In this document: positions 1 through 57,992 of the stretch, piece by piece
Layout: each line of letters starts with the position of its first letter
How positions within the stretch are numbered: position 1 is the stretch's first letter
Source: a virus
DNA: 57,992 nucleotides
Strand: one strand, 5' to 3'
IMG/VR virus record: IMGVR_UViG_3300033141_003442
The notes under the pieces: generated by a model
What the model saw: only the letters and a program-made list of their open reading frames with translations
Database searches by the model: none
Told to the model about the DNA's origin: nothing
Translations under genes and position numbers: made by a program

Positions 1-114
1 AAAATGATTGCTGGTATGTCAGAAAGAGAAAAAGAAGAGCTTGCACCAATTATTGAAGATTATGAAAGATATAAAAAATCTTTAGAACCAGGGTTAAAAT
101 CAGTTCCATTATCG
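1..114. repeat. Terminal duplication: window 1-114 is identical to 57879-57992 (circular or terminally redundant assembly overlap)
   Basis: Direct comparison of the first 114 nt with the last 114 nt; an ORF continues in frame across the junction. Confidence 0.9.
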
Positions 115-2096: not shown

Positions 2097-5000
2097 ATGC
2101 CATTAACCCCAGTTGACTATGACCCTTTTAAAGAAGAAAAACAATCTTCAAAAAAATTAACAAAAAAACAAAAAGCAAAATTAGTTCCCGTTGATTATGA
2201 CCCTTTTGCTTCTGAAAAAAAGCAACCAGAAATCAGTGCTGAAAAAGGTATCCCACAATACCTCATCCCTTTTAGTAAATACCTAGGTATAGAACCAACT
2301 TATGTAAAACCAGGCTCATTTCTTGGTAATTTATTGGCTGTGCCTCATGCCTTTTTTGAAGCTGGAACGACTGCATTTGAAAGCCCTTATTATATTTTAA
2401 AAGGGCTAGGGAAAATATTACGATTACCTTCTTTAGAAAAAGCTGGCGAATGGGGGATTAAAGGACTTGAACCTACAAGAAGACATCATGAATTAATGCG
2501 TAAACAATTATATGTGCCACCTACTTCACCAACAGCACGATTAGCCCATTCCATTAGTAAAAAAGTAGCAGAAGCAATAGGAAGTTTTGCCCGTCCTGAT
2601 TTGCCTGTTTTAGTAGCTAGTCCTACAGCTTATGGTTTTCTTAGTGGATTAGAAACATTAGGAGCAGGAGCTCCACCTACACAAGCTTTAACAGCAGGCA
2701 TACATGGAATGATAGCAGGTAAAACTTTTGAAGCTGTTAGAGGATTAAGTCCTATGCAGGCACTTACTAGAGCCGGGGCTGTTGGAGCTACACCTGAAGT
2801 TGCAAGAGGTCTTATTACTGGTAAACCAGAGCAAATTGGTAAAGGAATAGAGGAAGGACTAAGCCTTGGTATATTTTCTGCATTGGCTACAATAAAAACT
2901 CCCTTAGCAAGAGAAATATATAGAAATAAAGTAAAAGCAGGCGTTCCAAGAGAAAAAGCATTACAAACAGCCTCTTTAGTAGAAGAAACAATTAAATCCT
3001 TAGATATTGATAAAGCTAAAAGTCTACCTCTTAAAGAAAAAGAAATACAAAAAGTAGAGAAAATCATTAGGGAGATAAGTAAACAAATAGAAGATTTACC
3101 AGAAGTTATAAAAGGTAAACGGGGATATAAGACAGAGAAAGGAGCTAAAATAGGGTTAAGATTGTTTGCTAAAGAAAATAAATTACCAAAAGATATGGAT
3201 TTAACCCAACATTACAATTTAGAGAAGGACGAAGCAGGTAATTTTGTTTGGAGAAAGATAACTGAAAAGCCAACGGAAATTAAACCTGCAATTAAACCTA
3301 AAGAAGAAGTAAAGCCTCCAGAGGTAGAAATTCCTAAAGAAGAAAAACCTCCAGCAAAAGAAATCAAAGAAAAGGTTGAAGAAAAGCCTAAGAAAGCCAA
3401 ACCTTATGAAAGCGTTGAACCTGGCAGTGCAGAATGGATGAAAATCTGGAAAGAGCATCCAGAGCTACAAAAGGAGATGGCTGAGATACGCCAGAAACAA
3501 ATAGTTGAGGAAGGTAAGAAAGAAGAAGCTTTACCAGAGGCTAAACCTGAAAAAGAACCTCCCAAAGAAAAACCTCCAGTAGTGCCTTTAACTAAGACAC
3601 TTTATGAAAATTCCTATCCCATTGAATTAAGTAAGGCCAGTGAGGTGTTTCCTAAACATAGACTTGGCGTTGATTATGTAGTTAAGCTGGTGGATAAAAA
3701 TACAGGTAAGGTTACTTGGGCTAGTTTAAGTGAGAAAAGGGCAAGAGAGTTATTTCCACGGTCTTTTGAAGAAAAGGCTAAGGAAGTTCCTAAAGCAGAA
3801 GCTGAATGGCAACCTGTAAAGGATTACAGCAAAGAAATAACTGAAGGAACTCATGTCAAATGGAAATATAAAGGCAAAGAGGGTGAAGGAATAGCCACAG
3901 GCAAGACAGGAAGGCGTAAGACAGGATTTGTTTATCATAAAGTTAAAACTCCAGAAGGCAAAACAAAATATATGCCTTGGACACCTAAAGCAGAATATTG
4001 GATTAAGGCAGAGAAAAAAGTTAAACCTGTTAAAGAAACAAAGGCAGAGGTTAAAGAAAAAGAACCTATAATAGCTATTTCTAAACGTGAACCTAATTTA
4101 CAATTTGAAATTGACCGTATAGAAGGAAATAAATTTATTGTAAAACGTCCTGTTATTATAAGCACATTGAAAGGAGAAGAAGGGAAAATAGTAGAAACAC
4201 CTGATAAATATTTAATAGGGCGAGAATATCCCGTTGAGAATTTTAGATTTGTAACACCCAAAGAATATGTAGCAGAAGTAAAAACAAAAGAAGCAAAAAT
4301 AAAAGCAGAAAGAGAAGCACAAAGGGAAACAGAACGAAAAAAACAGGAAGAAATTAAACAAGCACTTAAAGCCAAGCCAGTTACAGATAAGTATTATATT
4401 TATTTAAAGGACAAAGGTTTTGAGGAAGTTGAGAAAGCCTATCCTGTTAAAATCTCAGGGTTTGAAAAGTATGATTTATTTGCCCATAAGGTAGGTAAAA
4501 AATGGAAAGTTTCTGAAAGTAAAACTGGTGTTGCTATAACAAAAGCCCTTCCAACCCGTAAAGAAGCAATAAAACAAGCTACTGAAATTTTAAATAGGCA
4601 TAAAGAAAAATCTGATGAAATGATAGAAGATGCTATAGCCTATGCGTTATCTCAGACAGGAATTTCTCCACGATATAAGCCTATTTCTAAAGAACCTACA
4701 ATAACTCAACCCAAAGAAAATTTATATGAAGTGCGTCATCCAGAGAAAAAGACATGGTATCAAATCAAAGAAGACCCAGAAACAGAGCAATGGAGAGTTA
4801 TAAAGTTTGAGCCTTATGAAACTATACATGAAGGACAAAAAGTAACTGTTAATAAAGCTACTGAAACAAAGTTTTTTAAAACTTTAGAAGAAGCAAAAGA
4901 TTTTGCTCAAAAAGGAATTATAGGCAAGCCAGTAGAAGTAAAAATAAGTTCTTTTGTAAAAGATGCTTATCTGGAAGAATATGGCAAAGAAAAAGGCACA

Positions 5001-8000
5001 CAAGAATTATCAAATTTAAAAAATAAAGTTCAAAAAGCATGGGATATTTTAAAAAAGAAATATCCTCAATATGCTAATAAAATTACTTCAATTACTATTC
5101 ATAGAATGTCCCCAGAAGATATAGCATTAGGTGGTGTTTCTTCTATTGGTAAGAAAGGAGATGTTATTGTTGACCCAACTCATGCTAAAACAGAGCCTAT
5201 GGAAACGCTTGCTCATGAAATGTTACATGCAACAGGAGCTACTGAAAAAGAAGCTCGTGCTTTTGAAAAAACTATATCTAAAGAAACTAAATTTTATTCT
5301 GGTATCCCTATTGATGAAATAGTTAAAACAGTCAATGAAACAACTAAGAAGGTTGTTGATTATATTAAACAAAAAAAGATTGAAAAAGTTGATAAAGCAG
5401 AAATAGAACATACAGATAGATTTCTTTCTTTTTATGCTAAACAAATACCTAAAGTATTAACTAGACTATATGAAAAAGAACACCTCAAAACAGCTCATCC
5501 AGAAACTGTTTATAGAGAGGCTTTAGGTGAATTACCTACTACTATGCCTGAAAAAGTTAAAAAGCCAATAGTTAATGCTTTGGATGCTTCAAGAGAACAC
5601 GATTATAAGCTTAGTGGTTATGAAATAAAAGTTAAAGAAAAATTATTAGGTAGTTACAATGCTATTTATAAAATATATGGCAAAAAAGGAATAAAAAGAT
5701 TTTTTGATTTACTTTCTGCTGAAGCACATAAACGCCATGCAATTAGTGAAAAACAGTTAAAAGAATTACCACCTGAGTTTCAATTAGCTTATAAAAGAAC
5801 AAAAGAATATTTATTAAACCCATTAAAAGAATATATGAAGTTTTTAGAAGAAAAATATCCTGAAGGATATAAAACAGAAGAAATGGCTAAAAAAGCATTA
5901 GCTGAAGTTGCAGAAAAGAAACAAATAGAAAATATAGAAAGCTTATATACTTTAAAACAAAATAAAGCCAACCTATTTTATTGGGAGAAAAACCCTAATG
6001 CTGAAAAAATAGCTAAAAAGAAATTACCTCAAATTATTACAAAATGGAATAAAGAATATCAAAAAGTAAAAGAGTTATTAAAACAGGCAGAAAAAGATTA
6101 TTTTTATCAACCTACTGTTAGAACTCATGAAGATATTATCCTTGTTCTTAAAAAACCTAAAAAAGAAGGTGCTAAATCTACCGTTGTAGGAGCTTTTGAA
6201 TTCCCTAATGAAAGGAAAGCTAAACAACAATACAATAGAATGCTTAAAGGTGATTATACAGCTATTCTTAATTGGTTTAGACGGGTAGGAGATTTAGAAG
6301 CTGGAAGAGATTTTGTAAATAACATTAAAAAGGGTGATTATACATTAAAGCTTATCAAATTTAAAACAGAGCCTACTTATACTCCTGAAGATATACCTCT
6401 ACAAAGTGTAATGGGCATTTTATCTAAATACAAAGGGAAACAAATCAAAGCTAAAAATCTTCAGGCTAAAGCTATTGCTGAAGATATACAGCGGTTTATT
6501 GAGAAGTTTGTTAATCCTATTAGTGTTAAAAGTTTTCATTTAGAAAAGAAGAATATCCCTGGATGGAGCTTAGACCCTCTTGATAGAAATGATATTTTAC
6601 TTAGAAGGGTGCTTTCTGAAAAATCTCTTATTGAGAAATTAAAACTTTCTGATGTTATAACTAATTCTTTTGCTCAAATAGACCCAGAACAACATCCACA
6701 ATATTATAAATGGCTTTCTGATTTTAATAAATATATGATGACGCCTAGAGAACCTGAAACTACTCGCCGTATTCTTTCTGCTTGGAGTATGTGGGGCAAT
6801 GCAATGTCTGTTATAGCTAATGCTACTCAGTCTTATATTTTAGGCCCCGCTGTAATAATAGAAAATAAATTAAATCCTGCTAAGTTTTTAAAATATGAAA
6901 CTGAGTATTTAAGAAAGTATATTGAAAGTGATTACGATAGTAAAGACTTAGCTTATCTTGAATGGGGAAAGAAAAACGGTGTATTTGCTCCTACAGCATG
7001 GAAAGAAGCTATGCTTGGTTTAACGGGAGAGAGAGGAGGAGTAATACCCAAGATAGAAGATATAGGTTATGCGGGATTTACTTTTGTTGAGTCTGTTAAA
7101 AACAGAATGAATACTTTTCTCTCTGTAGCTAAAATGCTTGAAGAAAAAGGAATGCCTTTTGAAGAAGCTATGAAAAAAGCTCGTGATATTACTTTTGATA
7201 TTCATTTTGATATGAATAAATGGAATACGTTGATTAGAAAGAAATATCCTAGATTATTTCAAACCTTAATGAGTTTTACATTTCATTCCTTTAAAACATT
7301 AAGAAGACTTATTTTTAAATCTTTTCCTTCTGCTAGAGAAAGAAAATATGCTATAGGTGCATTAGCTACTTTTTATTTAACTCATTTTTTAGTTGGCGGA
7401 ATGGCAGCTACTCCAGGCGGAGAACTTTTCTGGCAGATGGTTGATATTCCCTTTAAAAAAGTTTTTAGGCAATCTATAAAGACTTATTTAATGAATGAAT
7501 TTTCTGATAAAGAACGCAAAAAATTACGTTTGTTCATACAATATGGATTGTTGGGATTGGCAGGATTACCAAGTGTAGCAGATAGAATTGGATTTGGTTA
7601 TAGAGAAGTAAGTAAACTTAATAATTTTATAGCAGATGCAATGGCTCATTTAGCTCCTATTCCAGTAATGGTTGCTAATCAAGCTGTTAAAGCTATTAGA
7701 ATGACGCAAAAGGGATATTCTTGGCCGACTGCTATTTCTCAACAATTCTCTCCTACCGTTGTAAGGAATATTTCTAGAACGCTGTATGCAATTAAAAAAG
7801 GTTATTTGCCAACATCCTATGGTAAACCTCTGCAAGATATATATGGTAATAACTTTGTGCCTACTGGATTAGAAGAAATTGCTATGTCTTTTATTGGTGC
7901 AATTCCACCTGAACAACAAGAGATTTATGAAATTAAAGAAGCTCAAAGAAAAAAAGAAGATATAAGATTGGCTCACTTACACGATATTACTAATGATATA

Positions 8001-8324
8001 GTATTAGGATACCTTGATAAAGATTATGCACGAATAGGAAGAGGGTTTGCAAAATGGACAAAATATAATAAAGAAATAATTAAAAAGATAATTAAGGCAA
8101 AAAAAGAGAAAAGAAATGATTTAGCTCGCTTCTGGTCAACTCAGTTAATAGAGCAAAAAGCAGTTGAAACATCTATTAGAAATAGATTAGGAAGACATGA
8201 AAGTGCACCAAATTTGTTAATGATGAGCTGGTGGAAAAAAGGACAAAAAGGTTATGAAGAAGCTGTTAAAGTTATTCTCTTAAGGGAATATTTACGCAGG
8301 CTTAAACAAAGGTTAAGGAGGTAA
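2097..8324 (+). CDS. Giant protein (2075 aa): candidate tape-measure or ejected polyvalent virion protein with HExxH zincin-like motif
   Basis: Uninterrupted 6.2-kb ORF with SD; duplicated N-terminal motif PVDYDPF x2; K/E/P-rich low-complexity stretch; HEMLH motif (LAHEMLHATG); hydrophobic C-terminal segments. Confidence 0.6.
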   Translation: MPLTPVDYDPFKEEKQSSKKLTKKQKAKLVPVDYDPFASEKKQPEISAEKGIPQYLIPFSKYLGIEPTYVKPGSFLGNLLAVPHAFFEAGTTAFESPYYILKGLGKILRLPSLEKAGEWGIKGLEPTRRHHELMRKQLYVPPTSPTARLAHSISKKVAEAIGSFARPDLPVLVASPTAYGFLSGLETLGAGAPPTQALTAGIHGMIAGKTFEAVRGLSPMQALTRAGAVGATPEVARGLITGKPEQIGKGIEEGLSLGIFSALATIKTPLAREIYRNKVKAGVPREKALQTASLVEETIKSLDIDKAKSLPLKEKEIQKVEKIIREISKQIEDLPEVIKGKRGYKTEKGAKIGLRLFAKENKLPKDMDLTQHYNLEKDEAGNFVWRKITEKPTEIKPAIKPKEEVKPPEVEIPKEEKPPAKEIKEKVEEKPKKAKPYESVEPGSAEWMKIWKEHPELQKEMAEIRQKQIVEEGKKEEALPEAKPEKEPPKEKPPVVPLTKTLYENSYPIELSKASEVFPKHRLGVDYVVKLVDKNTGKVTWASLSEKRARELFPRSFEEKAKEVPKAEAEWQPVKDYSKEITEGTHVKWKYKGKEGEGIATGKTGRRKTGFVYHKVKTPEGKTKYMPWTPKAEYWIKAEKKVKPVKETKAEVKEKEPIIAISKREPNLQFEIDRIEGNKFIVKRPVIISTLKGEEGKIVETPDKYLIGREYPVENFRFVTPKEYVAEVKTKEAKIKAEREAQRETERKKQEEIKQALKAKPVTDKYYIYLKDKGFEEVEKAYPVKISGFEKYDLFAHKVGKKWKVSESKTGVAITKALPTRKEAIKQATEILNRHKEKSDEMIEDAIAYALSQTGISPRYKPISKEPTITQPKENLYEVRHPEKKTWYQIKEDPETEQWRVIKFEPYETIHEGQKVTVNKATETKFFKTLEEAKDFAQKGIIGKPVEVKISSFVKDAYLEEYGKEKGTQELSNLKNKVQKAWDILKKKYPQYANKITSITIHRMSPEDIALGGVSSIGKKGDVIVDPTHAKTEPMETLAHEMLHATGATEKEARAFEKTISKETKFYSGIPIDEIVKTVNETTKKVVDYIKQKKIEKVDKAEIEHTDRFLSFYAKQIPKVLTRLYEKEHLKTAHPETVYREALGELPTTMPEKVKKPIVNALDASREHDYKLSGYEIKVKEKLLGSYNAIYKIYGKKGIKRFFDLLSAEAHKRHAISEKQLKELPPEFQLAYKRTKEYLLNPLKEYMKFLEEKYPEGYKTEEMAKKALAEVAEKKQIENIESLYTLKQNKANLFYWEKNPNAEKIAKKKLPQIITKWNKEYQKVKELLKQAEKDYFYQPTVRTHEDIILVLKKPKKEGAKSTVVGAFEFPNERKAKQQYNRMLKGDYTAILNWFRRVGDLEAGRDFVNNIKKGDYTLKLIKFKTEPTYTPEDIPLQSVMGILSKYKGKQIKAKNLQAKAIAEDIQRFIEKFVNPISVKSFHLEKKNIPGWSLDPLDRNDILLRRVLSEKSLIEKLKLSDVITNSFAQIDPEQHPQYYKWLSDFNKYMMTPREPETTRRILSAWSMWGNAMSVIANATQSYILGPAVIIENKLNPAKFLKYETEYLRKYIESDYDSKDLAYLEWGKKNGVFAPTAWKEAMLGLTGERGGVIPKIEDIGYAGFTFVESVKNRMNTFLSVAKMLEEKGMPFEEAMKKARDITFDIHFDMNKWNTLIRKKYPRLFQTLMSFTFHSFKTLRRLIFKSFPSARERKYAIGALATFYLTHFLVGGMAATPGGELFWQMVDIPFKKVFRQSIKTYLMNEFSDKERKKLRLFIQYGLLGLAGLPSVADRIGFGYREVSKLNNFIADAMAHLAPIPVMVANQAVKAIRMTQKGYSWPTAISQQFSPTVVRNISRTLYAIKKGYLPTSYGKPLQDIYGNNFVPTGLEEIAMSFIGAIPPEQQEIYEIKEAQRKKEDIRLAHLHDITNDIVLGYLDKDYARIGRGFAKWTKYNKEIIKKIIKAKKEKRNDLARFWSTQLIEQKAVETSIRNRLGRHESAPNLLMMSWWKKGQKGYEEAVKVILLREYLRRLKQRLRR

Positions 8325-8328
8325 TATA

Positions 8329-8586
8329 ATGGGAGAGAACAAAGATAAACAGGCAGGATTACAGTGGCTTTGGCAACATGCTCTTTTCTTGCCTAAGAAT
8401 AGTGTAAGGGCAATTGCATTTCTGTTTACACTTATGCTTCTTGGTTATCTAGCATTAAATTTAAAAGGGCAAGTTCAAATGACGATTATAGGTGGACTTA
8501 TTAGCGTGCTTACAAGTGCTCTGCATTATTATTTTGGAGGAAGAGAAAAACAAGAGGAGAGAAATAATGAGCAAAGTAATAGCTGA
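8329..8586 (+). CDS. Small membrane protein with two predicted TM helices (holin-like)
   Basis: 85-aa ORF; hydrophobic stretches AIAFLFTLMLLGYLAL and MTIIGGLISVLTSALHYYF followed by a charged C-terminus. Confidence 0.35.
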   Translation: MGENKDKQAGLQWLWQHALFLPKNSVRAIAFLFTLMLLGYLALNLKGQVQMTIIGGLISVLTSALHYYFGGREKQEERNNEQSNS

Positions 8587-8884
8587 AAATGAGAATTGGA
8601 GAATAAGACAAGCAGAAGGAGACAATTATGCTCTTACTTGTGCAAAAGGCCACTTCACATTCTACATTAAGGGTAAAAATGAAAAGCTGGTATTCTATAA
8701 TACTCTTAAATCAGTAGAAGCAAAAATGAAAGAGGTAGCTTTTCTTACTTTTGGCGGATGGTTTGCTTTATGGTTAACTACAGAAGATGTAGCATTTCTT
8801 TTAGCAAATCTTCCTATGACTGATGCAGAAAAACAGGCAAGTATAAATGCTGAAGTAGTAGATGAAAAGATAACTATTCAGTAA
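8567..8884 (+). CDS. Hypothetical protein (start moved to ATG 8567, which has an SD)
   Basis: ORF track 8492..8884; an in-frame ATG at 8567 is preceded by GGAGAG and avoids most of the overlap with the holin-like ORF. Confidence 0.4.
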   Translation: MSKVIAENENWRIRQAEGDNYALTCAKGHFTFYIKGKNEKLVFYNTLKSVEAKMKEVAFLTFGGWFALWLTTEDVAFLLANLPMTDAEKQASINAEVVDEKITIQ

Positions 8885-9541
8885 ATGATGGAAAATAAAA
8901 AGATAATTTGTATCAGCGACCTTCACATTCCTTATACTAGCCGATATTTTATTCCTTTTGCTGGTTATGCTTGTAAAGCGGATAAGGTAATTTTTAATGG
9001 AGATATTCTGGATTTAGTGAGATGCAATACAAACGAAATTAAAAATAGCTATATTGGACAAAAGTTGATTAGTGCATTGAAAAAGATTGTAAAATCAACC
9101 CAAACAATGTTCATTGAGGGTAATCATGACCCAGAATTAGAAAAAAGTCTAACTGAATTATTAGGAATGGAAATTGCTACATTCCCTTTTTATCGTATAG
9201 GCAGGATAGGATTTGTGCATGGACATCAATTTGACCCCTTCTGCAAACATTGGAATTGGCAATTACTATCAAAGTTTGGGCCTTGGTTTTTTAATCCACC
9301 TTCTAGATGGAAACAGAAAGATAGAGAAAAATGGAAAGAGAAAATAGGAAAAATATATACAGAAGCATTTTCTTTCTTAGAAAAAGCTAGTTGGTGTAGA
9401 ATATTAGTTATTGGACATACTCATTATCCTTCTGTCCATAAATTGGAAACAGGACAAAAGCTAGCTGATTGTGGAGATTGGATAGATAGTAAGAGTTGGG
9501 TGGAAATTGAAAGAGGTAAAGTGGAAATTAAAACATTGTAA
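8885..9541 (+). CDS. Calcineurin-like metallophosphoesterase
   Basis: Motifs in order: ISDLH, GDILD, GNHD, GHQFD, GHTHYP. Confidence 0.75.
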   Translation: MMENKKIICISDLHIPYTSRYFIPFAGYACKADKVIFNGDILDLVRCNTNEIKNSYIGQKLISALKKIVKSTQTMFIEGNHDPELEKSLTELLGMEIATFPFYRIGRIGFVHGHQFDPFCKHWNWQLLSKFGPWFFNPPSRWKQKDREKWKEKIGKIYTEAFSFLEKASWCRILVIGHTHYPSVHKLETGQKLADCGDWIDSKSWVEIERGKVEIKTL

Positions 9542-9544
9542 GCT

Positions 9545-10815
9545 ACCCCTTTTTTACGGAAGGGGCTTTATCAGTGAGGAATAATCCTCCTGATTTAGGG
9601 CAGGCTTACAAACTGCCCAGCCCAAGAAGGAACTTTTGCCTTCAAGGGCAAAGATAGCAAGATTTTTGGAGGCATTGTAATCAGCATGGACTTGATAGCC
9701 ACAAGCCTTACAACAAAAAACAGAACCATTACGATTAGAAGATTGAATATGGCCACACTTACTACATCTTTGAGAACTGTATTTAGGGTCAACAAACCAA
9801 ACATCAATACCCTCTTCAAGTGCTTTGTATTGAATATAATTTGGGAGTTTAGAAAATGCCCAGAGAGAAACTTTATGTTTTTCAGCTTTTCTCCATTTTT
9901 TTACACTTCCTCTAATACTATTAAGATTTTCCATAGCAATTACTTGAGCACCAATCCTTTTTGCCTTCTCAACAATTTGCCGAGAAATATTATGCAAAAC
10001 CCAGTTAACAAAGCGGTTTTCTCGCCCACTCATTCTCTTAAGCAAGAGATGGGCAGAGCGAGTGCCTTTCTTTTGGATTTTGCTTCTCCGTTCGGCAAAC
10101 TGTCTTCTTTTATCATTAAGCATTCCTGCTTTAAAAAATTTGCCTATAGAGGTTACAGCAATATTCTTAACTCCCAAATCAACTCCCATAACAGTTTCAG
10201 GTTTTCTAACAAGAGCGGGTTTAATTATTGTAATATTAAGAAAGAAATCTTTGCCATTATAAGAAAGTGTAGCAGTCCTAAATTCATAATTTGTATTATC
10301 AAGTATTTTCTTTTGATAATCTCCAAGAAGATATTTGGCTTTTACTCTACCATTTACAGTAGAAAAAGTGCATTCTCTATTTTTAATAGTTACAGTTCTT
10401 TTATCAAGTTGAATTGCAGAAAAAGGCCTGAAGGTTGGTTTAGTTGCTTTTCTCTTTTTACTCCAATTGATAACACAAAGTTTAACCGCATCACAAGCTT
10501 TATTCCGAGCAGAACATATCAAATTAGCTTGAAGATTGGTTTGCTTTTTAAGTGGATAGTAAACAAGTTTATGGAGTTTAGATTTATTGATTATCTTCTT
10601 TTCAGGCTTCCATGCTTCATTTATGCAAAAATTAAGAGCAAAATTATATTGTCTAAAAGTTTCAAGAACATCTTGCTTTCTTTCTTGTGGAATATCCAGT
10701 TTTACTTTACAAGTCTTGATTATTTTTCTCATCGTGGTAAAATTATATCATGTTTATCTGAAATGTCAAGAAAGGAGTAAAAAGGCAATTCCTCCCCACC
10801 CTTACGGATGGGGTC
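9545..10815. mobile_element. Putative IS200/IS605-family (IS1341-like, tnpB-only) insertion bounded by similar subterminal hairpins
   Basis: Hairpin CCCCTTTTTTACGGAAGGGG at 9546-9565 and CCCCACCCTTACGGATGGGG at 10794-10813, same orientation, flanking tnpB; no tnpA present. Confidence 0.45.
9554..10732 (-). CDS. tnpB: TnpB-like RNA-guided endonuclease (IS200/IS605 OrfB family)
   Basis: 392 aa; RuvC-I (GVDLGVKNIAV), RuvC-II (IAMENLNS), zinc finger CSKCGH...CCKACG, RuvC-III (HADYNASKNLA). Confidence 0.85.
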   Translation of the reverse strand: MRKIIKTCKVKLDIPQERKQDVLETFRQYNFALNFCINEAWKPEKKIINKSKLHKLVYYPLKKQTNLQANLICSARNKACDAVKLCVINWSKKRKATKPTFRPFSAIQLDKRTVTIKNRECTFSTVNGRVKAKYLLGDYQKKILDNTNYEFRTATLSYNGKDFFLNITIIKPALVRKPETVMGVDLGVKNIAVTSIGKFFKAGMLNDKRRQFAERRSKIQKKGTRSAHLLLKRMSGRENRFVNWVLHNISRQIVEKAKRIGAQVIAMENLNSIRGSVKKWRKAEKHKVSLWAFSKLPNYIQYKALEEGIDVWFVDPKYSSQRCSKCGHIQSSNRNGSVFCCKACGYQVHADYNASKNLAIFALEGKSSFLGWAVCKPALNQEDYSSLIKPLP

Positions 10816-10832
10816 TCCTTGCCTAATTCTAG

Positions 10833-11018
10833 ATGAACCAGCAAGAGATAGAAGCAAGAAGACTTACTACTTTAATCAAGCAGTGGGCAATAGAAATTAG
10901 GACTAGATGTTCTGAAACAGAAGACCCAGAAGAGTGCAAAAGACTTATAGAACAATTACTTAAAGCATGTGAAAAGTTTGAACGGTTGATAAATTTAATT
11001 GGATATTTTAAAAATTAA
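10833..11018 (+). CDS. Hypothetical protein (61 aa)
   Basis: ORF immediately after the putative IS left end; no clear SD. Confidence 0.3.
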   Translation: MNQQEIEARRLTTLIKQWAIEIRTRCSETEDPEECKRLIEQLLKACEKFERLINLIGYFKN

Positions 11019-11031
11019 GCAGGAGGCAAAA

Positions 11032-11406
11032 ATGAAGAAATTACCTATTATTTTTCTCTGCTTTATATTTTTGGGTTGTGCTGGGCATACAGGTAAGCTT
11101 GTCAAGAATTATGATGATTTTATGAAACAGGCTAATGAGTTGGCCATTGTTCTTTGCACACATAGTGAATTCTCCACTTGTTATTGGCAGGCTGCACTAG
11201 GAGATGATATAAACAAACTGCCTGCTGAAGCTTTAAACATTCTGGATGAGATTGAACAAACAGTTAAAGGTAAAACGGTAGATGAACTAACGGAATGTGA
11301 AAAAGGGAAGTTATTAGGTTTATGGCAGAGATTTACTTATCTTGTAGGCAAGGATATAATAGAGAAGGTCGTGCCTTATATGATTAAGTTTGTAGGGGCT
11401 TTGTAA
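11032..11406 (+). CDS. Putative lipoprotein (signal peptide plus Cys)
   Basis: In-frame ATG at 11032 preceded by AGGAGG; N-terminus MKKLPIIFLCFIFLGCAG has a lipobox-like FLGC. Confidence 0.5.
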   Translation: MKKLPIIFLCFIFLGCAGHTGKLVKNYDDFMKQANELAIVLCTHSEFSTCYWQAALGDDINKLPAEALNILDEIEQTVKGKTVDELTECEKGKLLGLWQRFTYLVGKDIIEKVVPYMIKFVGAL

Positions 11407-11567
11407 TGACATGGAAAGAATTTAAAGAGAAAGTTGATAAAGAATTAAAAGAGCTTGAGATTAATGAGGATACTAATATTTGTTGGATTGATGTTACCTT
11501 TTATATTTCTACGGAAGTGAAAATTAGATATGACCGTGGTGGGAAGTGTTTAATAATTGAAAATTGA
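11406..11567 (+). CDS. Small hypothetical protein (about 53 aa, below the ORF-track cutoff)
   Basis: ATG overlaps the upstream stop (TAATG) and its stop overlaps the next start; fills a gap that would otherwise be non-coding. Confidence 0.3.
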   Translation: MTWKEFKEKVDKELKELEINEDTNICWIDVTFYISTEVKIRYDRGGKCLIIEN

Positions 11568-11752
11568 GATGGAAAATAGAGAAACATGCTGACGAATGGT
11601 GGATTAGAATTAAATATAACATGTTTCAGTTAAGGGAAACAGAGATAGTAGTTATAGAAATAGAGGACTTGCTTTATGCTGGCCCAAATAAAAAGATAAA
11701 AAATAAAATGGTTAGATTATTTAGGAAATTATATGGGAAGGAGGTTCGGTAA
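11564..11752 (+). CDS. Hypothetical protein (62 aa, TTG start)
   Basis: ORF track; tightly packed with neighbours. Confidence 0.35.
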   Translation: MRWKIEKHADEWWIRIKYNMFQLRETEIVVIEIEDLLYAGPNKKIKNKMVRLFRKLYGKEVR

Positions 11753-12270
11753 TGCCTGCTGAATTGCTTATAAAGGCTTGTGATGCAACCCACAGTAATG
11801 AGGTAAAAGACCTGCGGGGTTGTTATAAAAAAGGTTATGTGGTTGTAATTAAGCCTGATGGTTGGAAATGGGGCAAAGAAGAACTAAACAAGGAAAAGTT
11901 TTACATTGTCCGAGTTAAGGATGCTAATCCTGAAGACTTGCAACATCTAATACAATTCCATGAAATAAGCCTTGGAACTAGATACCATGCTATGTCAGAT
12001 AAACTCGGTGTTTTTGTTAGCAGTCCAGACAAGGATGCTGCCGAGAGTGAGTGTTTGAAGAAATGTCAACTTGTGGCTCAAGAGTTAACTCGCTTTGGGA
12101 TTAATGTAGGTGAAGAAGACTATAATATTAAAATTAAAGAAGAACCAGAAATCCATACAATAGCACGGAGGCGGTATAAAATTGATATTAGTGGAATGGA
12201 AGATAGTTTAAAGAAAGGCATAATTGAGGTAAATGCAAAAGATTTAAAAATCATTGACCAGAGACAATAA
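11752..12270 (+). CDS. Hypothetical protein (172 aa)
   Basis: ORF with SD GGAAGGAGG; start overlaps the upstream stop. Confidence 0.5.
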   Translation: MPAELLIKACDATHSNEVKDLRGCYKKGYVVVIKPDGWKWGKEELNKEKFYIVRVKDANPEDLQHLIQFHEISLGTRYHAMSDKLGVFVSSPDKDAAESECLKKCQLVAQELTRFGINVGEEDYNIKIKEEPEIHTIARRRYKIDISGMEDSLKKGIIEVNAKDLKIIDQRQ

Positions 12271-13868
12271 TGGCAACTGAAGTAGTAAAAGTGATTGACC
12301 CAGACAATGGCACGGGAGCGGATTATACCTCTCTTTCTGCTTGGGAAGCAGGAGAGGAGAAAGATTTACAACAGGCAGATGAGATAGCTGTTGCCAAGTG
12401 CCGATGCACAGGTGGAAGTGCAGATACTGATGCTGTGGTTATTGATGGTAGTTGGAATCCAGATGCTACTCGTTACATTAAAATCTGGACTGACCCAAGT
12501 GAAGGATATAGGCATGATGGGAAATGGAATGACAGTAAATACAGGTTAGTTAATAATGCTGATTCTTATGCACTTGATGTTAATGAGCCTTATACGAAAA
12601 TTGAGGGACTTCAAATCAGACAAACAGGGCCTGGTGATTACAATCACGCTTTGGATGTTAGGAATGCTTCTTATTTTGAAGTTTCATATACTATCGTTCG
12701 TGGATGCAACGGAAATAATGCAAAGGGGATTTATGGAAGTGTATCTGAAGGTCCTGTAAAACTTTGGAATAACATTGTTTATGATTTTAATAGCTCAGAT
12801 GGAATAGTATTAAGTATATCCACGGCAGGACAAAAAGCTTATGTTTATAACAACACAGTTTATAATTGCAATATAGGTATTTATTCAGGAGGATACCAAG
12901 ATATTGTAGCTAAAAATAACCTCGTTCAAGACTGCACTGATGGATATGAAGGTGATTTTGACTCTGATTCTGATTACAACATCTCAGACATCTCTGGCGA
13001 CGCACCAGGTGCAAATAGTAAGACCTGCACAGTTTCCTTTGTTGATGAAGCTAATGATGATTTCCATCTTGCATCCAGTGATACTTGTGCAAAGGATTCA
13101 GGTGTAGATTTATCCTCTGACACAAACTTGGCCTTTTCAGATGACATAGATGGCGAGACACGGAGCGGGACTTGGGATATTGGAGCGGATGAGTATGTAG
13201 TGGCTGGAGGCTTAATCAAAATAATGGATGAGACTGTTTCAATATCAGAGACTTTAATAAGAAGACTTTATGCAAATCGTTTTATCGGAGAGACAGTTGC
13301 AATTACTGAAACTATGCCAAGGAGAGGATATTCAAATCGTTTAATAAACGAGACAATTACTATATCTGAAGGAATATTAAGAAGGTTAAGGTCAAATAGG
13401 ATTATAAACGAGACAATATCAATTGCTGAGGCAATATCTCGTAGAGCATTCTCAAGTAGAGTTATAAATGAAACATTAAGCATAGCTGAAGCAGTGCTTA
13501 AGCGATTAAGGGCTGTAAGGATTATCAGTGAGACTGTATCTGTATCTGAAAGCTTAGTAAGAAGATTACGGTCGATAAGGATAATTAGTGAGACAATTGG
13601 TATAACAGAGAACTTTGTCCGTTCATGTGTTGCTACATTAGTAAAAATAATGAATGAAGTCATATCAATTACAGAAAATTTAGTTAAAATTAAAACTTTT
13701 ATTGAAACAGTAAGTGAAGTAACAATAGGTAAAATAATTTTTCATGCTCATCGTGCATCTATAGGGTTTAAAAATTTTTATTCATCTATAGAATTTAAGA
13801 AGTTTTGTTCGTCTATAAGTTTTAAAAAGTTTATGGCTAAAATAAGCTTTAAAAGAAAAGGAGATTAA
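12270..13868 (+). CDS. Beta-helix (pectin-lyase-fold-like) protein with C-terminal array of 20-aa tandem repeats; candidate receptor-binding or depolymerase protein
   Basis: NN/N-x-G-rich beta-helix-like middle region (YNNTVYNCNIGIYSGG); nine imperfect 20-aa repeats ET-x-SI-x-E...RR...R-I-N. Confidence 0.5.
   Translation: MATEVVKVIDPDNGTGADYTSLSAWEAGEEKDLQQADEIAVAKCRCTGGSADTDAVVIDGSWNPDATRYIKIWTDPSEGYRHDGKWNDSKYRLVNNADSYALDVNEPYTKIEGLQIRQTGPGDYNHALDVRNASYFEVSYTIVRGCNGNNAKGIYGSVSEGPVKLWNNIVYDFNSSDGIVLSISTAGQKAYVYNNTVYNCNIGIYSGGYQDIVAKNNLVQDCTDGYEGDFDSDSDYNISDISGDAPGANSKTCTVSFVDEANDDFHLASSDTCAKDSGVDLSSDTNLAFSDDIDGETRSGTWDIGADEYVVAGGLIKIMDETVSISETLIRRLYANRFIGETVAITETMPRRGYSNRLINETITISEGILRRLRSNRIINETISIAEAISRRAFSSRVINETLSIAEAVLKRLRAVRIISETVSVSESLVRRLRSIRIISETIGITENFVRSCVATLVKIMNEVISITENLVKIKTFIETVSEVTIGKIIFHAHRASIGFKNFYSSIEFKKFCSSISFKKFMAKISFKRKGD
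13229..13710 (+). repeat. About nine imperfect 60-nt tandem repeats inside CDS 12270..13868
   Basis: Periodic repetition in both nucleotide and protein sequence; also generates the spurious antisense ORF 13268..13663. Confidence 0.7.
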
Positions 13869-32610: not shown

Positions 32611-33039
32611 TCAGCCTCCTTGGTTGAAGGTTATGTATCCATTTTCTCTTAACCAAATTGCCATTTTGGCTCGTGCATTAGCTTCAATTTTTTCTATAGC
32701 ATACCATTCTGTAATATTTAATCTATCATAGTAATAATCGAAACCATCTTCATTTTTTTCTATTCTTAAAAATCCCAGTTCTGGCAAATAAAATGGCAAC
32801 CATTCACCCAATTCTGAGTTAGTAGGAGCTTTAATTACTTCTCTATAACTAGGGTTGCAATTTCTTAGCATCTGCCAAAACTTTTTGTCCCGTTCTCTTT
32901 CAAGCAGCAATTGGACTCTATCCCCATCTTTATCATGATAAACTACCCAAAACCAGCCTGGCTCTTTTTGAGGAAACCCTAATTCTTTTAGCCTCCTACT
33001 TAATTCCAAACTAGTTACTTCTTTTTCTGCCCAATGCAT
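32611..33039 (-). CDS. Hypothetical protein (142 aa)
   Basis: ORF in co-directional block. Confidence 0.5.
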   Translation of the reverse strand: MHWAEKEVTSLELSRRLKELGFPQKEPGWFWVVYHDKDGDRVQLLLERERDKKFWQMLRNCNPSYREVIKAPTNSELGEWLPFYLPELGFLRIEKNEDGFDYYYDRLNITEWYAIEKIEANARAKMAIWLRENGYITFNQGG

Positions 33040-57572: not shown

Positions 57573-57992
57573 ATGCCAGCACCAGTAGCTGCAGCAGGAA
57601 TAATTGGAGCGAGCACTTTAGGTGCAGCAGCTTTGAGTAAAGGAGGCCAAAAAGCAGGTAAAGTTCCTAGACCTTCAGCAGAAGAAAGGTCACTTCAAAA
57701 AGCTTTATTACCTTTATTATTATCTTCTTTATATGAAAAACCTGAAGATGCTTTACGTGCTCCTAAAAGTTGGACACAAGAAGAATGGGAAGCTTATTTA
57801 AGGGAAACAGGTATCCCTGTTGATTTAGTTAAATCAGGTATTTTAAGTAAGTATAAAAAAACAATTGATGAGATTGAGAAAATGATTGCTGGTATGTCAG
57901 AAAGAGAAAAAGAAGAGCTTGCACCAATTATTGAAGATTATGAAAGATATAAAAAATCTTTAGAACCAGGGTTAAAATCAGTTCCATTATCG
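57573..57992 (+). CDS. N-terminal portion of the junction-spanning ORF (continues at window position 115-480)
   Basis: ATG 57573 with SD AGGGGGTGA; open to the window end, in frame with ORF 4..480 through the duplicated 114 bp. Confidence 0.6.
   Translation, partial: MPAPVAAAGIIGASTLGAAALSKGGQKAGKVPRPSAEERSLQKALLPLLLSSLYEKPEDALRAPKSWTQEEWEAYLRETGIPVDLVKSGILSKYKKTIDEIEKMIAGMSEREKEELAPIIEDYERYKKSLEPGLKSVPLS

What the first reader, a model, noticed from the sequence alone, without database searches (positions are those of the whole stretch)
9545..10815. Solo TnpB (IS1341-like) element with matching subterminal hairpins inserted in a phage genome
A full-length TnpB (RuvC D/E/D plus zinc finger) sits between two similar hairpins, CCCC-N4-TTACGGA-(A/T)GGGG, at 9546-9565 and 10794-10813. 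That is the architecture of an IS200/IS605 element lacking tnpA. It lies in a 1.3-kb slot between a phosphoesterase gene and the next plus-strand gene, so without it the two flanking genes would be almost contiguous. A phage-carried TnpB implies an omega-RNA-guided nuclease that travels with the virus. The omega-RNA scaffold would overlap the 3' end of tnpB (about 9546-9700, minus strand) and the guide would derive from DNA just beyond the right-end hairpin (about 9525-9545).
Basis: partly seen in the sequence, partly recalled or inferred. Interest (0 to 1): 0.7.

Follow-up and report, generated by a model that had tools for sequence, protein, structure and literature searches.

The report
TnpB-only transposon inserted in a phage
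A 1,295-bp TnpB-only IS200/IS605 transposon, carrying its guide-RNA scaffold, sits exactly at the stop/start overlap of two genes in an N4-like phage, leaving both proteins unchanged; it is a textbook member of a known kind, not a new system.

Summary
Window 9538-10832 is a 1,295-bp IS200/IS605 element of the tnpB-only (IS1341) type, on the minus strand.

- **Protein:** TnpB is 392 aa with an intact RuvC D185/E268/D351 triad and a C4 zinc finger.
- **Insertion:** Four related phages have the empty site. Their homology breaks at 9537|10833, with no target duplication.
- **Target:** The target motif (TAM) is TTCAT, the reverse complement of the ATGAA at an ATGA stop/start overlap. The right-end terminus TTAC (GTAA on the plus strand) re-creates the phosphoesterase stop codon, so neither flanking protein changes.
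- **Ends:** The two hairpins are conserved across about 17 independent insertions of the family. They vary in at least three sequence types, and the left and right ends of an element share a type in all but two cases.
- **Guide RNA:** A roughly 112-nt omega-RNA scaffold (9538-9649) has four stems and a pseudoknot next to the guide. Covariation supports it: 95% of cells pair, against 74% when shuffled.
- **Guide position:** The predicted guide is 9537 to about 9518, not 9525-9545.
- **Transposase:** No TnpA is present, so any mobility must be in trans.

The Heimdallarchaeaceae label on the contig is probably a binning error, and a bacterial host is likely. Side lead: 11 of 17 family insertions abut a start codon. 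Cleavage activity and omega-RNA expression are untested.

The parts
9538..10832 (-). The complete IS200/IS605 (IS1341-type, tnpB-only) element, 1,295 bp.
   Evidence: blastn against related phages is contiguous across win 9537|10833 (L185 2579|2580, L187 5650|5651, L188 and L189 5653|5654). Family alignments lose homology at the same two points.
10833..10837 (-). TAM / target site, TTCAT on the minus strand (ATGAA on the plus strand). It is outside the element and holds the ATG of the 61-aa ORF.
   Evidence: (H)TCAT immediately precedes the left end in 17 distinct insertions. It is present in all four empty sites.
10784..10823 (-). Left-end subterminal imperfect palindrome. The outer stem is GGCAA (10823-10819) with TTGCC (10788-10784). 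The inner hairpin is 10813-10794.
   Evidence: The DNA fold gives -11.3 kcal/mol, z = -3.9. The hairpin is conserved with compensatory changes across the family. There are 19 nt from the cleavage point to the inner hairpin foot, as reported for IS608 (PMC3201880).
10742..10769 (-). tnpB promoter: TTGACA, 16-nt spacer, TG, TATAAT (12 of 12 consensus positions). It ends 9 nt before the ATG, which suggests a near-leaderless mRNA.
   Evidence: This is the only 12/12 site in 9300-11100. A TTGAC/TTGAT box and an AT-rich ATA(T/A)A(A/T)-type box at matching spacing recur in most relatives that keep a canonical left end.
9554..10732 (-). tnpB coding sequence, 392 aa plus stop. RuvC D185/E268/D351; zinc finger C323, C326, C341, C344.
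9538..9649 (-). Predicted omega-RNA scaffold, about 112 nt. Stem 1 is 9649-9620, stem 2 is 9618-9598, stem 3 is 9594-9570 and stem 4 (the right-end hairpin) is 9565-9546. The pseudoknot pairs 9609-9604 (GTAAGC) with 9543-9538 (GCTTAC).
   Evidence: Covariance model R1 gives 128.5 bits, its only hit in the window. The single-sequence MFE gives the same four stems, z = -4.78.
9546..9565 (-). Right-end subterminal hairpin, CCCCTT-CCGTAAAA-AAGGGG. It is preceded by AAAG (9569-9566) and followed by TAGC-TTAC.
   Evidence: It shares the (A/T)TCCGTAA core with the left-end hairpin, and the two ends co-vary across the family.
9538..9541 (-). Right-end terminus TTAC (the cleavage motif). On the plus strand it reads GTAA and supplies the TAA stop (9539-9541) of the phosphoesterase gene.
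   Evidence: 20 of the 23 distinct right ends tabulated end in TTAC and 3 in TTAT; the L318 and L320 ends added later also read TTAC. The gene reads TTG TAA here and TTA TGA in the empty sites.
9518..9537 (-). Predicted guide segment of the omega-RNA, AATGTTTTAATTTCCACTTT. It is antisense to the last codons of the phosphoesterase gene.
   Evidence: Inferred from its position directly 3' of the right end. Its only exact match in the window is itself, which is preceded by CTTAC and not by a TAM.
8885..9541 (+). Flanking calcineurin-like phosphoesterase gene, 218 aa.
   Evidence: Pfam Metallophos 2.3e-7. Homologues at 78-81% identity sit in related phages, directly followed by the 61-aa ORF.
10833..11018 (+). 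Flanking 61-aa ORF whose ATG is the reverse complement of the TAM.
   Evidence: Conserved in L185 and L187-L189, directly after the phosphoesterase gene through an ATGA overlap.

Best explanation
Window 9538-10832 is a non-autonomous IS200/IS605 insertion sequence of the tnpB-only (IS1341) type. It inserted as single-stranded DNA 3' of the target TTCAT, on the strand opposite the phage genes. That target is the reverse complement of the ATGA stop/start overlap between a phosphoesterase gene and a 61-aa gene of an N4-like tailed phage.

**Shown:**
- the exact ends and the absence of a target duplication;
- empty sites in related phages;
- matching, co-varying hairpins at the left and right ends;
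- an intact TnpB;
- a conserved, covarying omega-RNA-like scaffold with a pseudoknot directly upstream of the flank;
- a consensus promoter for tnpB;
- no TnpA in the phage.

**Inferred from established knowledge of the family:**
- A Y1 TnpA supplied in trans binds the two hairpins and excises or inserts the top strand.
- The tnpB transcript gives TnpB plus an omega-RNA whose 3' guide is the adjoining phage sequence, AATGTTTTAATTTCCA...
- That complex cuts any copy of the phage genome carrying TTCAT followed by this sequence, that is, the empty site. Such copies arise after excision or arrive with a co-infecting relative.
- Recombination with an element-bearing copy then re-installs the element (retention, or homing).

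Because the right-end terminus reads GTAA on the plus strand, the insertion changes TTA TGA to TTG TAA. The phosphoesterase keeps its C-terminus and the next gene keeps its ATG.
For: - **Identity of TnpB:** Pfam domains; invariant D/E/D and C4 residues; alignment to solved Cas12f/TnpB structures.
- **Insertion:** blastn breakpoints fall at 9537|10833 in four IMG/VR relatives, whose junction reads ..AAAAC(A/T)TT|ATGAA...
- **Ends:** homology to 30 related loci stops at TCAT| and at TTAC|.
- **Hairpins:** they are unique in the window, fold as hairpins, and fall into at least three sequence types. The left and right ends of an element share a type in all but two cases.
- **IS608-like geometry:** 19 nt from the left cleavage point to the hairpin foot, and AAAG 5' of the hairpin that precedes a TTAC cleavage site (PMC3201880).
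- **Omega-RNA:** covariance model R1 hits the window once, at 9538-9686 (128.5 bits). 95.1% of cells pair against 73.7% when shuffled and 36-47% when slid, and 36 of 39 pairs show double-sided changes. The pseudoknot helix was not part of the model, yet it is 95% paired and switches from GTAAGC/GCTTAC to GTAAAT/ATTTAC to GTCAAC/GTTGAC. The four-stems-plus-pseudoknot plan and the roughly 112-nt size match the ISDra2 omega-RNA (PMC10097598).
- **Promoter:** 12 of 12 consensus positions.
- **Transposase:** none in the window at E<=10, but TnpA lies next to the 51%-identical relatives L087, L029, L030 and L089.
- **Mechanism of retention:** PMC10055086.
Against: - No transcript or cleavage data exist. 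Some TnpBs, such as the IS608 one, were inactive when tested (PMC10055086).
- No cognate TnpA or host genome was identified, so current mobility is unknown.
- The nearest sequenced empty sites carry 1-3 mismatches to the predicted guide (position 3 in L185; positions 6, 11 and 15 in L187/L188). Homing into those particular relatives is therefore uncertain.
- A second contig (L162) carries the identical insertion. No same-strain empty site was found.
Confidence: 0.85

Rival explanations
1. The element is an immobile, decaying relic. It inserted once, no cognate TnpA is available, and TnpB and its omega-RNA no longer act.
For: There is no TnpA in the window or in any close relative's flanks. Some relatives have lost hairpins: L003/L004 lack both, and L002 lacks a recognisable left end. 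An identical insertion is seen on a second contig.
Against: The ORF is full length with every catalytic residue. Both hairpins, the TAM, the TTAC end, the promoter and all omega-RNA helices are intact. The left and right hairpins of this copy have diverged from the family consensus together, which argues for continued selection by one binding protein.
Confidence: 0.12
2. It is a native or domesticated phage gene. The flanking hairpins are ordinary transcription terminators that resemble each other by chance.
For: Both hairpins are G+C-rich stems next to T-rich tracts. One terminator-like site was called inside the left end on the minus strand.
Against: Four related phages lack the whole 1,295 bp at a precisely contiguous junction. 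The same end sequences flank TnpB relatives in unrelated bacterial contexts such as dnaA, proS and accB. The motif is unique in the window.
Confidence: 0.02
3. The phage has co-opted the element. The TnpB-omega-RNA complex serves mainly as a weapon against co-infecting relatives that carry the uninterrupted phosphoesterase/61-aa junction, much like the free-standing homing endonucleases of T-even phages, and not only as transposon self-maintenance.
For: The predicted target (TAM plus guide) exists, with 1-3 mismatches, in at least four related phage genomes from the same kind of samples. TnpB relatives of 71-86% identity sit at other sites next to homologues of window gene 32611-33039 in related phage contigs. 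The phage encodes RecT, which would support recombinational copying.
Against: This reading cannot be told apart from ordinary TnpB retention or homing with sequence data alone. The mismatches fall in the TAM-proximal part of the guide.
Confidence: 0.15
4. The contig is an Asgard (Heimdall) archaeal virus, so this is an archaeal-virus TnpB.
For: NCBI files the contig's proteins under 'Candidatus Heimdallarchaeaceae archaeon'. More distant TnpB relatives (35-48% identity) are haloarchaeal or methanogen IS1341-type elements.
Against: Members of the same 90% clusters for the capsid and portal proteins are filed under Omnitrophica and Thermoplasmata, so binning is inconsistent. The phage has a RecT, a phage O/DnaD-like replication initiator, an N4-gp56-type capsid, and portal hits only to phages of bacteria. 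tnpB has a perfect sigma-70 promoter. The closest canonical relatives abut bacterial dnaA, fabZ, ispE, proS and rpsO.
Confidence: 0.08

Closest known systems
ISDra2 TnpB and its omega-RNA (Deinococcus radiodurans; PMC8612924, PMC10097598)
   Same: It shares the RuvC D/E/D triad and zinc finger. The guide RNA is encoded across the tnpB 3' end and the right end. The scaffold is about 112-116 nt, with four stems and a pseudoknot formed by the nucleotides just 5' of the guide. The TAM equals the transposon's target site.
   Different: Sequence similarity is weak: phmmer E = 1.1e-5 to the solved ISDra2 TnpB chains, confined to the RuvC/TNB half. The TAM is (T)TCAT and not TTGAT. The pseudoknot here is six canonical pairs that include the terminal TTAC. 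There is no tnpA in cis. No Rfam family matches.
IS608 (Helicobacter pylori), the mechanistic model of IS200/IS605 transposition (PMC3201880)
   Same: Both have subterminal imperfect palindromes at each end on one strand and insert 3' of a tetranucleotide without duplication. There are 19 nt between the left cleavage site and the hairpin foot. The tetranucleotide AAAG sits 5' of a hairpin whose associated cleavage site is TTAC.
   Different: In IS608 the AAAG/TTAC pair is at the left end and TTAC is the target. Here it is at the right end and the target is TCAT. IS608 carries tnpA.
IS1341-type (tnpB-only) elements, for example haloarchaeal ISHgi14-like copies with 3' sense-overlapping RNAs (PMC4615843)
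   Same: They have a tnpB-only organisation, a non-coding RNA overlapping the tnpB 3' end, and 35-48% protein identity.
   Different: The clade of the window copy (64-88% identity) lies in bacterial and phage contexts. It has its own hairpin types and its own TAM.
TnpB/IS605 genes already recorded in phage genomes (Thermus phage MN1 and Lalka phages, phiCD211, Lactobacillus iLp1308, many Salinibacter and Staphylococcus phages)
   Same: A TnpB gene inside a tailed-phage genome. 380 INPHARED records match at the protein level (PMC11437467).
   Different: The best phage match is only 31% identical. Here the ends, TAM, empty sites and omega-RNA are all defined.
Free-standing homing endonuclease genes of T-even phages (a functional analogue only)
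   Same: A selfish nuclease gene sits between phage genes. It is predicted to cut the allele that lacks it and to be copied in by recombination.
   Different: Target recognition is RNA-guided and set by the flank. The element also has transposon ends.

Membership tests
IS200/IS605 insertion sequences | Subterminal imperfect palindromes (hairpins) at both ends, in the same orientation on one strand, with no terminal inverted repeats. | tested here: met
   Hairpins at 10813-10794 and 9565-9546 (minus sense) share the CCCC(A/T)TCCGTAA core. They fold as hairpins and are conserved with compensatory changes in relatives.
IS200/IS605 insertion sequences | Insertion 3' of a short specific target sequence, with no target-site duplication and scarless empty sites. 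| tested here: met
   Empty sites in L185, L187, L188 and L189 are contiguous across 9537|10833. (H)TCAT abuts the left end in 17 insertions.
IS200/IS605 insertion sequences | A Y1 (HUH) TnpA transposase encoded in the element. | tested here: not met
   A TnpA profile search of all ORFs of 60 aa or more in the window gave nothing at E<=10. This absence is what defines the tnpB-only IS1341 subgroup. TnpA does lie next to the 51%-identical relatives L087, L029, L030 and L089.
IS200/IS605 insertion sequences | Cleavage sites recognised through a guide tetranucleotide 5' of each hairpin foot. | tested here: inconclusive
   AAAG precedes the right-end hairpin and the right cleavage site is TTAC, the pair described for IS608 (PMC3201880). 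The left-end spacing is 19 nt. The left-end guide/TCAT pairing could not be deduced, and no biochemistry was possible.
IS200/IS605 insertion sequences | Evidence of mobility: related copies in different genomic contexts. | tested here: met
   There are 17 distinct left flanks and about 20 distinct right flanks among relatives of 64-88% identity.
TnpB / OMEGA RNA-guided nucleases | RuvC-like nuclease with a D-E-D triad and a C4 zinc finger (TNB domain). | tested here: met
   D185, E268, D351 and C323/C326/C341/C344 are invariant in 41 sequences. Pfam PF01385 and PF07282 match. The residues align to Cas12f/TnpB structures.
TnpB / OMEGA RNA-guided nucleases | A structured omega-RNA scaffold overlapping the tnpB 3' end and the right end, with a pseudoknot next to the guide. 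| tested here: met
   There are four stems plus a pseudoknot. 95.1% of cells pair, 36 of 39 pairs show double-sided changes, and the pseudoknot helix was not in the model. The single-sequence fold has z = -4.78. The plan matches PMC10097598.
TnpB / OMEGA RNA-guided nucleases | The omega-RNA is actually transcribed and processed, with a guide of about 16-20 nt from the flank. | not testable with these tools
   This needs small-RNA sequencing. Only the position of the guide (9537 to about 9518) is inferred.
TnpB / OMEGA RNA-guided nucleases | TAM-dependent, RNA-guided cleavage of double-stranded DNA. | not testable with these tools
   This needs a plasmid-interference or in vitro cleavage assay with TTCAT plus the guide target.
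Nuclease-dead domesticated TnpB (TldR-like and similar) | Loss or rearrangement of the RuvC catalytic residues, plus loss of the transposon ends. | tested here: not met
   The catalytic residues are intact and both ends are intact.

The most novel reading that the evidence does not exclude
This TnpB clade may be adapted to gene boundaries. Its target TCAT is the reverse complement of ATGA, and its right end terminates in TTAC (GTAA on the other strand). An insertion at an ATGA stop/start overlap is therefore silent for both proteins (xxA TGA becomes xxG TAA, and the ATG is kept).

Across the family, 11 of 17 independent insertions sit exactly at the start codon of a real gene, including dnaA, proS, ispE, fabZ, purB and the biotin carrier gene. 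The expectation is 24% if insertion merely avoided ORFs (p = 4.4e-4). If essential genes tolerate this, the left end must also supply expression signals for the neighbouring gene.
Probability: 0.35. Interest if true: 0.6.

Novelty: new member of a known kind. Interest (0 to 1): 0.4.

Why it matters
This is a fully delimited natural TnpB system: a 392-aa protein, a TAM of (T)TCAT, a scaffold of about 112 nt with a mapped pseudoknot, a known guide and a known natural target. It comes with sequenced empty sites in sister phages. That makes it directly usable for testing whether TnpB drives homing between co-infecting phages.

It is also a clean example of an insertion that costs the carrier no coding sequence. 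The start-codon bias seen across the family is a testable lead on how such elements are tolerated in very compact genomes. None of this changes the known picture of IS200/IS605 or TnpB biology.

Tried and rejected
- **Rfam:** no hit at gathering thresholds over the whole window. A permissive scan of 9450-10900 gave only noise with E of about 1 or more.
- **DNA search of INPHARED phages:** no match with 8300-12300.
- **Exact empty-site 25-mer in IMG/VR:** none found. Relatives were reached through flanking proteins instead.
- **First phosphoesterase protein scan of IMG/VR:** found nothing until a two-sequence alignment was used.
- **Exact-protein look-up of the phosphoesterase:** not on record.
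- **Scan of IMG/VR for this copy's hairpin type** (CCCCWTCCGTAA-N2-6-GGGG): 119 or more hits, which is roughly the chance level for that database by my own estimate. Only 2 of the 119 loci hold a distant TnpB, so no cognate TnpA or sister element was found this way.
- **Outward-facing promoter or Shine-Dalgarno sequence in the left end** for the neighbouring gene: nothing convincing (and inspection).
- **Deducing the left-end guide tetranucleotide for TCAT by the IS608 rule:** no clean match.
- **Native-gene and terminator-pair readings:** rejected on the empty sites.
- **The archaeal-virus reading:** considered and judged unlikely.
Full report
**1. Observation**

A 392-aa ORF lies on the minus strand at 9554..10732, between plus-strand genes. 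It matches Pfam OrfB_IS605 (1.4e-9) and the Cas12f1-like TNB zinc-ribbon domain (4.4e-22). The motif CCCCNNNNTTACGGAWGGGG occurs at 9546-9565 and 10794-10813 and nowhere else in 58 kb. Even with three mismatches allowed, the chance expectation is 0.16. In an alignment of 41 relatives, D185, E268 and D351 (RuvC) and C323, C326, C341 and C344 (zinc finger) are invariant. The same motifs align with solved Cas12f and TnpB structures.

**2. It is an insertion, and its ends are exact**

Thirty loci from metagenomes and MAGs carry relatives of 64-88% identity. I aligned their flanks in tnpB sense.

- Upstream, homology begins right after (H)TCAT.
- Downstream, homology ends right after ..(C/T)TTAC.

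In the window this gives 9538-10832, 1,295 bp.

An independent test came from sister phages. I used flanking proteins as bait and recovered five IMG/VR relatives whose phosphoesterase is 78-81% identical to the window's. In four of them (L185, L187, L188, L189) blastn is contiguous across window 9537|10833. Their junction reads ..AAAAC(A/T)TT|ATGAA.. So there is no target duplication, and the element is absent from a conserved locus.

In the empty site the phosphoesterase ends TTA TGA, and that TGA overlaps the ATG of the conserved 61-aa ORF. In the window the right-end terminus TTAC reads GTAA on the plus strand, so the gene ends TTG TAA. The C-terminus (..K-T-L) is the same and the downstream ATG is untouched. 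The insertion sits inside a 4-nt gene overlap and is silent for both proteins.

**3. The ends look like IS200/IS605 ends**

- The left-end hairpin lies inside a longer GGCAA...TTGCC stem (DNA fold z = -3.9).
- The hairpins keep their stems through compensatory changes across the family.
- They occur in at least three sequence types. The majority type is C(T/C)CCCGA(A/T)TTTA(A/T)TCGTGG(A/G)G. L008 and L009 have a ..TGCTTTAGCTG.. core. The window copy has the (A/T)TCCGTAA type.
- The left and right ends of an element share a type in all but two of the elements with canonical ends. In L009 the left-end loop is the reverse complement of the right-end loop. In L018 the left hairpin carries an extra insertion. 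Co-variation of this kind is expected if one protein reads both ends.
- The left cleavage point is 19 nt from the hairpin foot. AAAG sits 5' of the right-end hairpin, whose cleavage site is TTAC. Both features are described for IS608 (PMC3201880).

A TnpA profile was built from phiCD211, three loci found here and an IS608 TnpA sequence written from memory. It finds nothing in the window at E<=10. It does find TnpA next to the 51%-identical relatives L087, L029, L030 and L089. The element is therefore of the tnpB-only, non-autonomous (IS1341) type.

**4. The guide-RNA scaffold**

RNAalifold on the last 260 nt of 20 relatives gave covarying stems. It also gave a long-range pairing between an internal GTAAGC and the terminal GCTTAC. 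I built a covariance model with four nested stems and no pseudoknot. It hits the window once, at 9538-9686 on the minus strand (128.5 bits). It also recovers relatives down to 44% TnpB identity.

On the resulting alignment of 30 distinct rows:

| Measure | Observed | Control |
|---|---|---|
| Cells forming a standard pair | 95.1% | 73.7% shuffled; 36-47% slid |
| Pairs with changes on both sides | 36 of 39 | 23.2 shuffled |

The pseudoknot helix was not in the model, so the alignment is not fitted to it. It is still 95% paired. It switches from GTAAGC/GCTTAC to GTAAAT/ATTTAC to GTCAAC/GTTGAC.

The window RNA alone folds into the same four stems (z = -4.78). Coordinates are:

- stem 1: 9649-9620
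- stem 2: 9618-9598
- pseudoknot: 9609-9604 with 9543-9538
- stem 3: 9594-9570
- stem 4, which is the right-end hairpin: 9565-9546

A scaffold of about 112 nt with four stems, and a pseudoknot made by the nucleotides just 5' of the guide, is the plan seen in the ISDra2 cryo-EM structure (PMC10097598). Rfam has no matching family.

The guide should therefore be the flank from 9537 down to about 9518, AATGTTTTAATTTCCA... Its only exact copy in the window is that flank. There it follows CTTAC and not a TAM, so the phage should not cut itself.

**5. Expression**

A 12-of-12 sigma-70 consensus (TTGACA, 16 nt, TG, TATAAT) lies at 10769-10742 on the minus strand, 9 nt before the tnpB ATG. A TTGAC/TTGAT box and an AT-rich ATA(T/A)A(A/T)-type box at matching spacing recur in most relatives that keep a canonical left end.

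**6. How it most likely works**

The steps shown are listed above. The rest is inferred from the family. A Y1 TnpA supplied in trans excises and inserts the top strand at TCAT. TnpB with its omega-RNA cuts TTCAT-plus-guide, which is the empty site, and recombination re-installs the element (PMC10055086).

In a phage, the empty site is also the allele carried by co-infecting relatives. Their targets differ from the guide at 1-3 positions (position 3 in L185; positions 6, 11 and 15 in L187/L188). The phage encodes RecT. The system would thus behave like a homing endonuclease gene. Whether it does is untested.

**7. Carrier and host**

The window has a 114-nt terminal overlap, so it is a complete genome of about 57.9 kb. 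It encodes:

- a large terminase and a portal (phrog_156, 1.8e-66);
- a capsid protein that NCBI names as N4-gp56 family;
- RecT;
- an O/DnaD-like replication initiator.

NCBI files it under 'Candidatus Heimdallarchaeaceae archaeon'. However, 90%-cluster mates of its capsid and portal proteins are filed under Omnitrophica and Thermoplasmata. Its portal matches only phages of bacteria. The closest canonical TnpB relatives abut bacterial dnaA, proS, ispE, fabZ, purB, rpsO and accB/accC. I therefore regard the archaeal label as a probable binning error (about 0.9).

**8. Comparison and novelty**

TnpB genes in phages are common: 380 INPHARED records match at the protein level, the best at 31% identity (PMC11437467). 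Every defining feature of IS200/IS605 and TnpB that could be tested was met, apart from tnpA in cis, and that absence defines the IS1341 subgroup. This is a new member of a known kind, unusually well delimited.

**9. Side lead**

In 11 of 17 distinct left flanks, the reverse complement of the TAM is the true start codon of a long ORF. In the reconstructed empty sites an in-frame stop lies 0-22 codons upstream with no alternative start. A crude null used all TCAT sites in the same sequences that do not interrupt an ORF. It gives 24%, so p = 4.4e-4.

At six distinct right flanks, the right-end TAA closes an ORF coming from that flank. These are the window, L018, the flank shared by L019, L011 and L020, L024, L034 and L320. 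The gene calls are rough and the sample is small. If the bias holds, the clade is biased towards gene boundaries, and its left end must allow expression of the neighbouring gene.

Noticed in passing
Loci L082, L018, L019, L011/L020, L023, L013, L016, L024, L022, L318, and window 10833: In 11 of 17 independent insertions of this TnpB clade, the TAM's reverse complement is the start codon of a real gene (DnaA-, ProS-, IspE-, FabZ-, PurB- and BCCP-like N-termini). The null is 24% (p = 4.4e-4). At six distinct right flanks, the right-end GTAA supplies the stop of the gene on the other side.
   Followed up: partly
L186 2076-2769 (IMGVR_UViG_3300021491_000012): A sister phage has a different insert of about 690 bp at the very same phosphoesterase/61-aa junction. 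It encodes a radical-SAM-like protein (..GCNFRCLYCHN..). The junction seems to be a hotspot for gene gain.
   Followed up: no
L003 5619-6785, L004 88-1257; L002 1529-2719: The closest relatives (80-86% TnpB identity) are altered at the ends. L003 and L004 lack both the left and right hairpins but keep TTCAT, the promoter, stems 1-3, the pseudoknot and the TTAC end. L002 lacks a recognisable left end. They look immobilised but otherwise intact. This also suggests stem 4 serves transposition more than the guide RNA.
   Followed up: partly
L010; L312-L314 (P0007, labelled Bathyarchaeota; neighbouring Peptidase_S78 gene): In an unrelated virus-like context, tnpB is co-oriented with its neighbours and has no left-end hairpin. 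It is flanked on both sides by a copy of about 45 bp of the upstream gene's 3' end (..AAAGATCCGGAAGTTGCCGCGATT(C/T)TACATAAATTAGC..). This is a different mode of residence and is unexplained.
   Followed up: partly
L001, L005-L007 just upstream of the tnpB ATG: A right-end-like terminus (..TTCCCCTACGGGAAATAACTTAC) lies 7 nt before the tnpB start in place of a left end. These contigs, and L002, carry homologues of window gene 32611-33039 next to tnpB. The same TnpB family therefore sits at other sites in related phages.
   Followed up: partly
L019 vs L011/L020; L023 vs L027; L016 vs L012-L015: Pairs of loci share the right flank but have different left flanks and different neighbouring genes. 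This is possibly recombination between copies. It was not resolved.
   Followed up: no
L019, L011, L020, L084: loop of the right-end hairpin: A palindromic insertion of about 30 nt (CCTGTCTGCGTGCAGGCACGCACAGGTAGA) sits in the loop of the right-end hairpin (stem 4).
   Followed up: no
window 1-114 and 57879-57992: The first 114 nt are repeated at the end of the contig. The window is a complete, circularly closed or terminally redundant genome of about 57,878 bp.
   Followed up: yes
whole window (NCBI proteins MHA1396102-MHA1396179): The contig is deposited in a 'Candidatus Heimdallarchaeaceae' MAG. Near-identical capsid and portal proteins sit in MAGs labelled Omnitrophica and Thermoplasmata. 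The gene content is that of an N4-like phage of bacteria, so the contig is probably mis-binned.
   Followed up: partly
window 2097-8324: A 2,075-aa ORF with lysine/glutamate-rich low-complexity stretches precedes the insertion region. In an N4-like phage it could be a large virion protein. It was not analysed.
   Followed up: no
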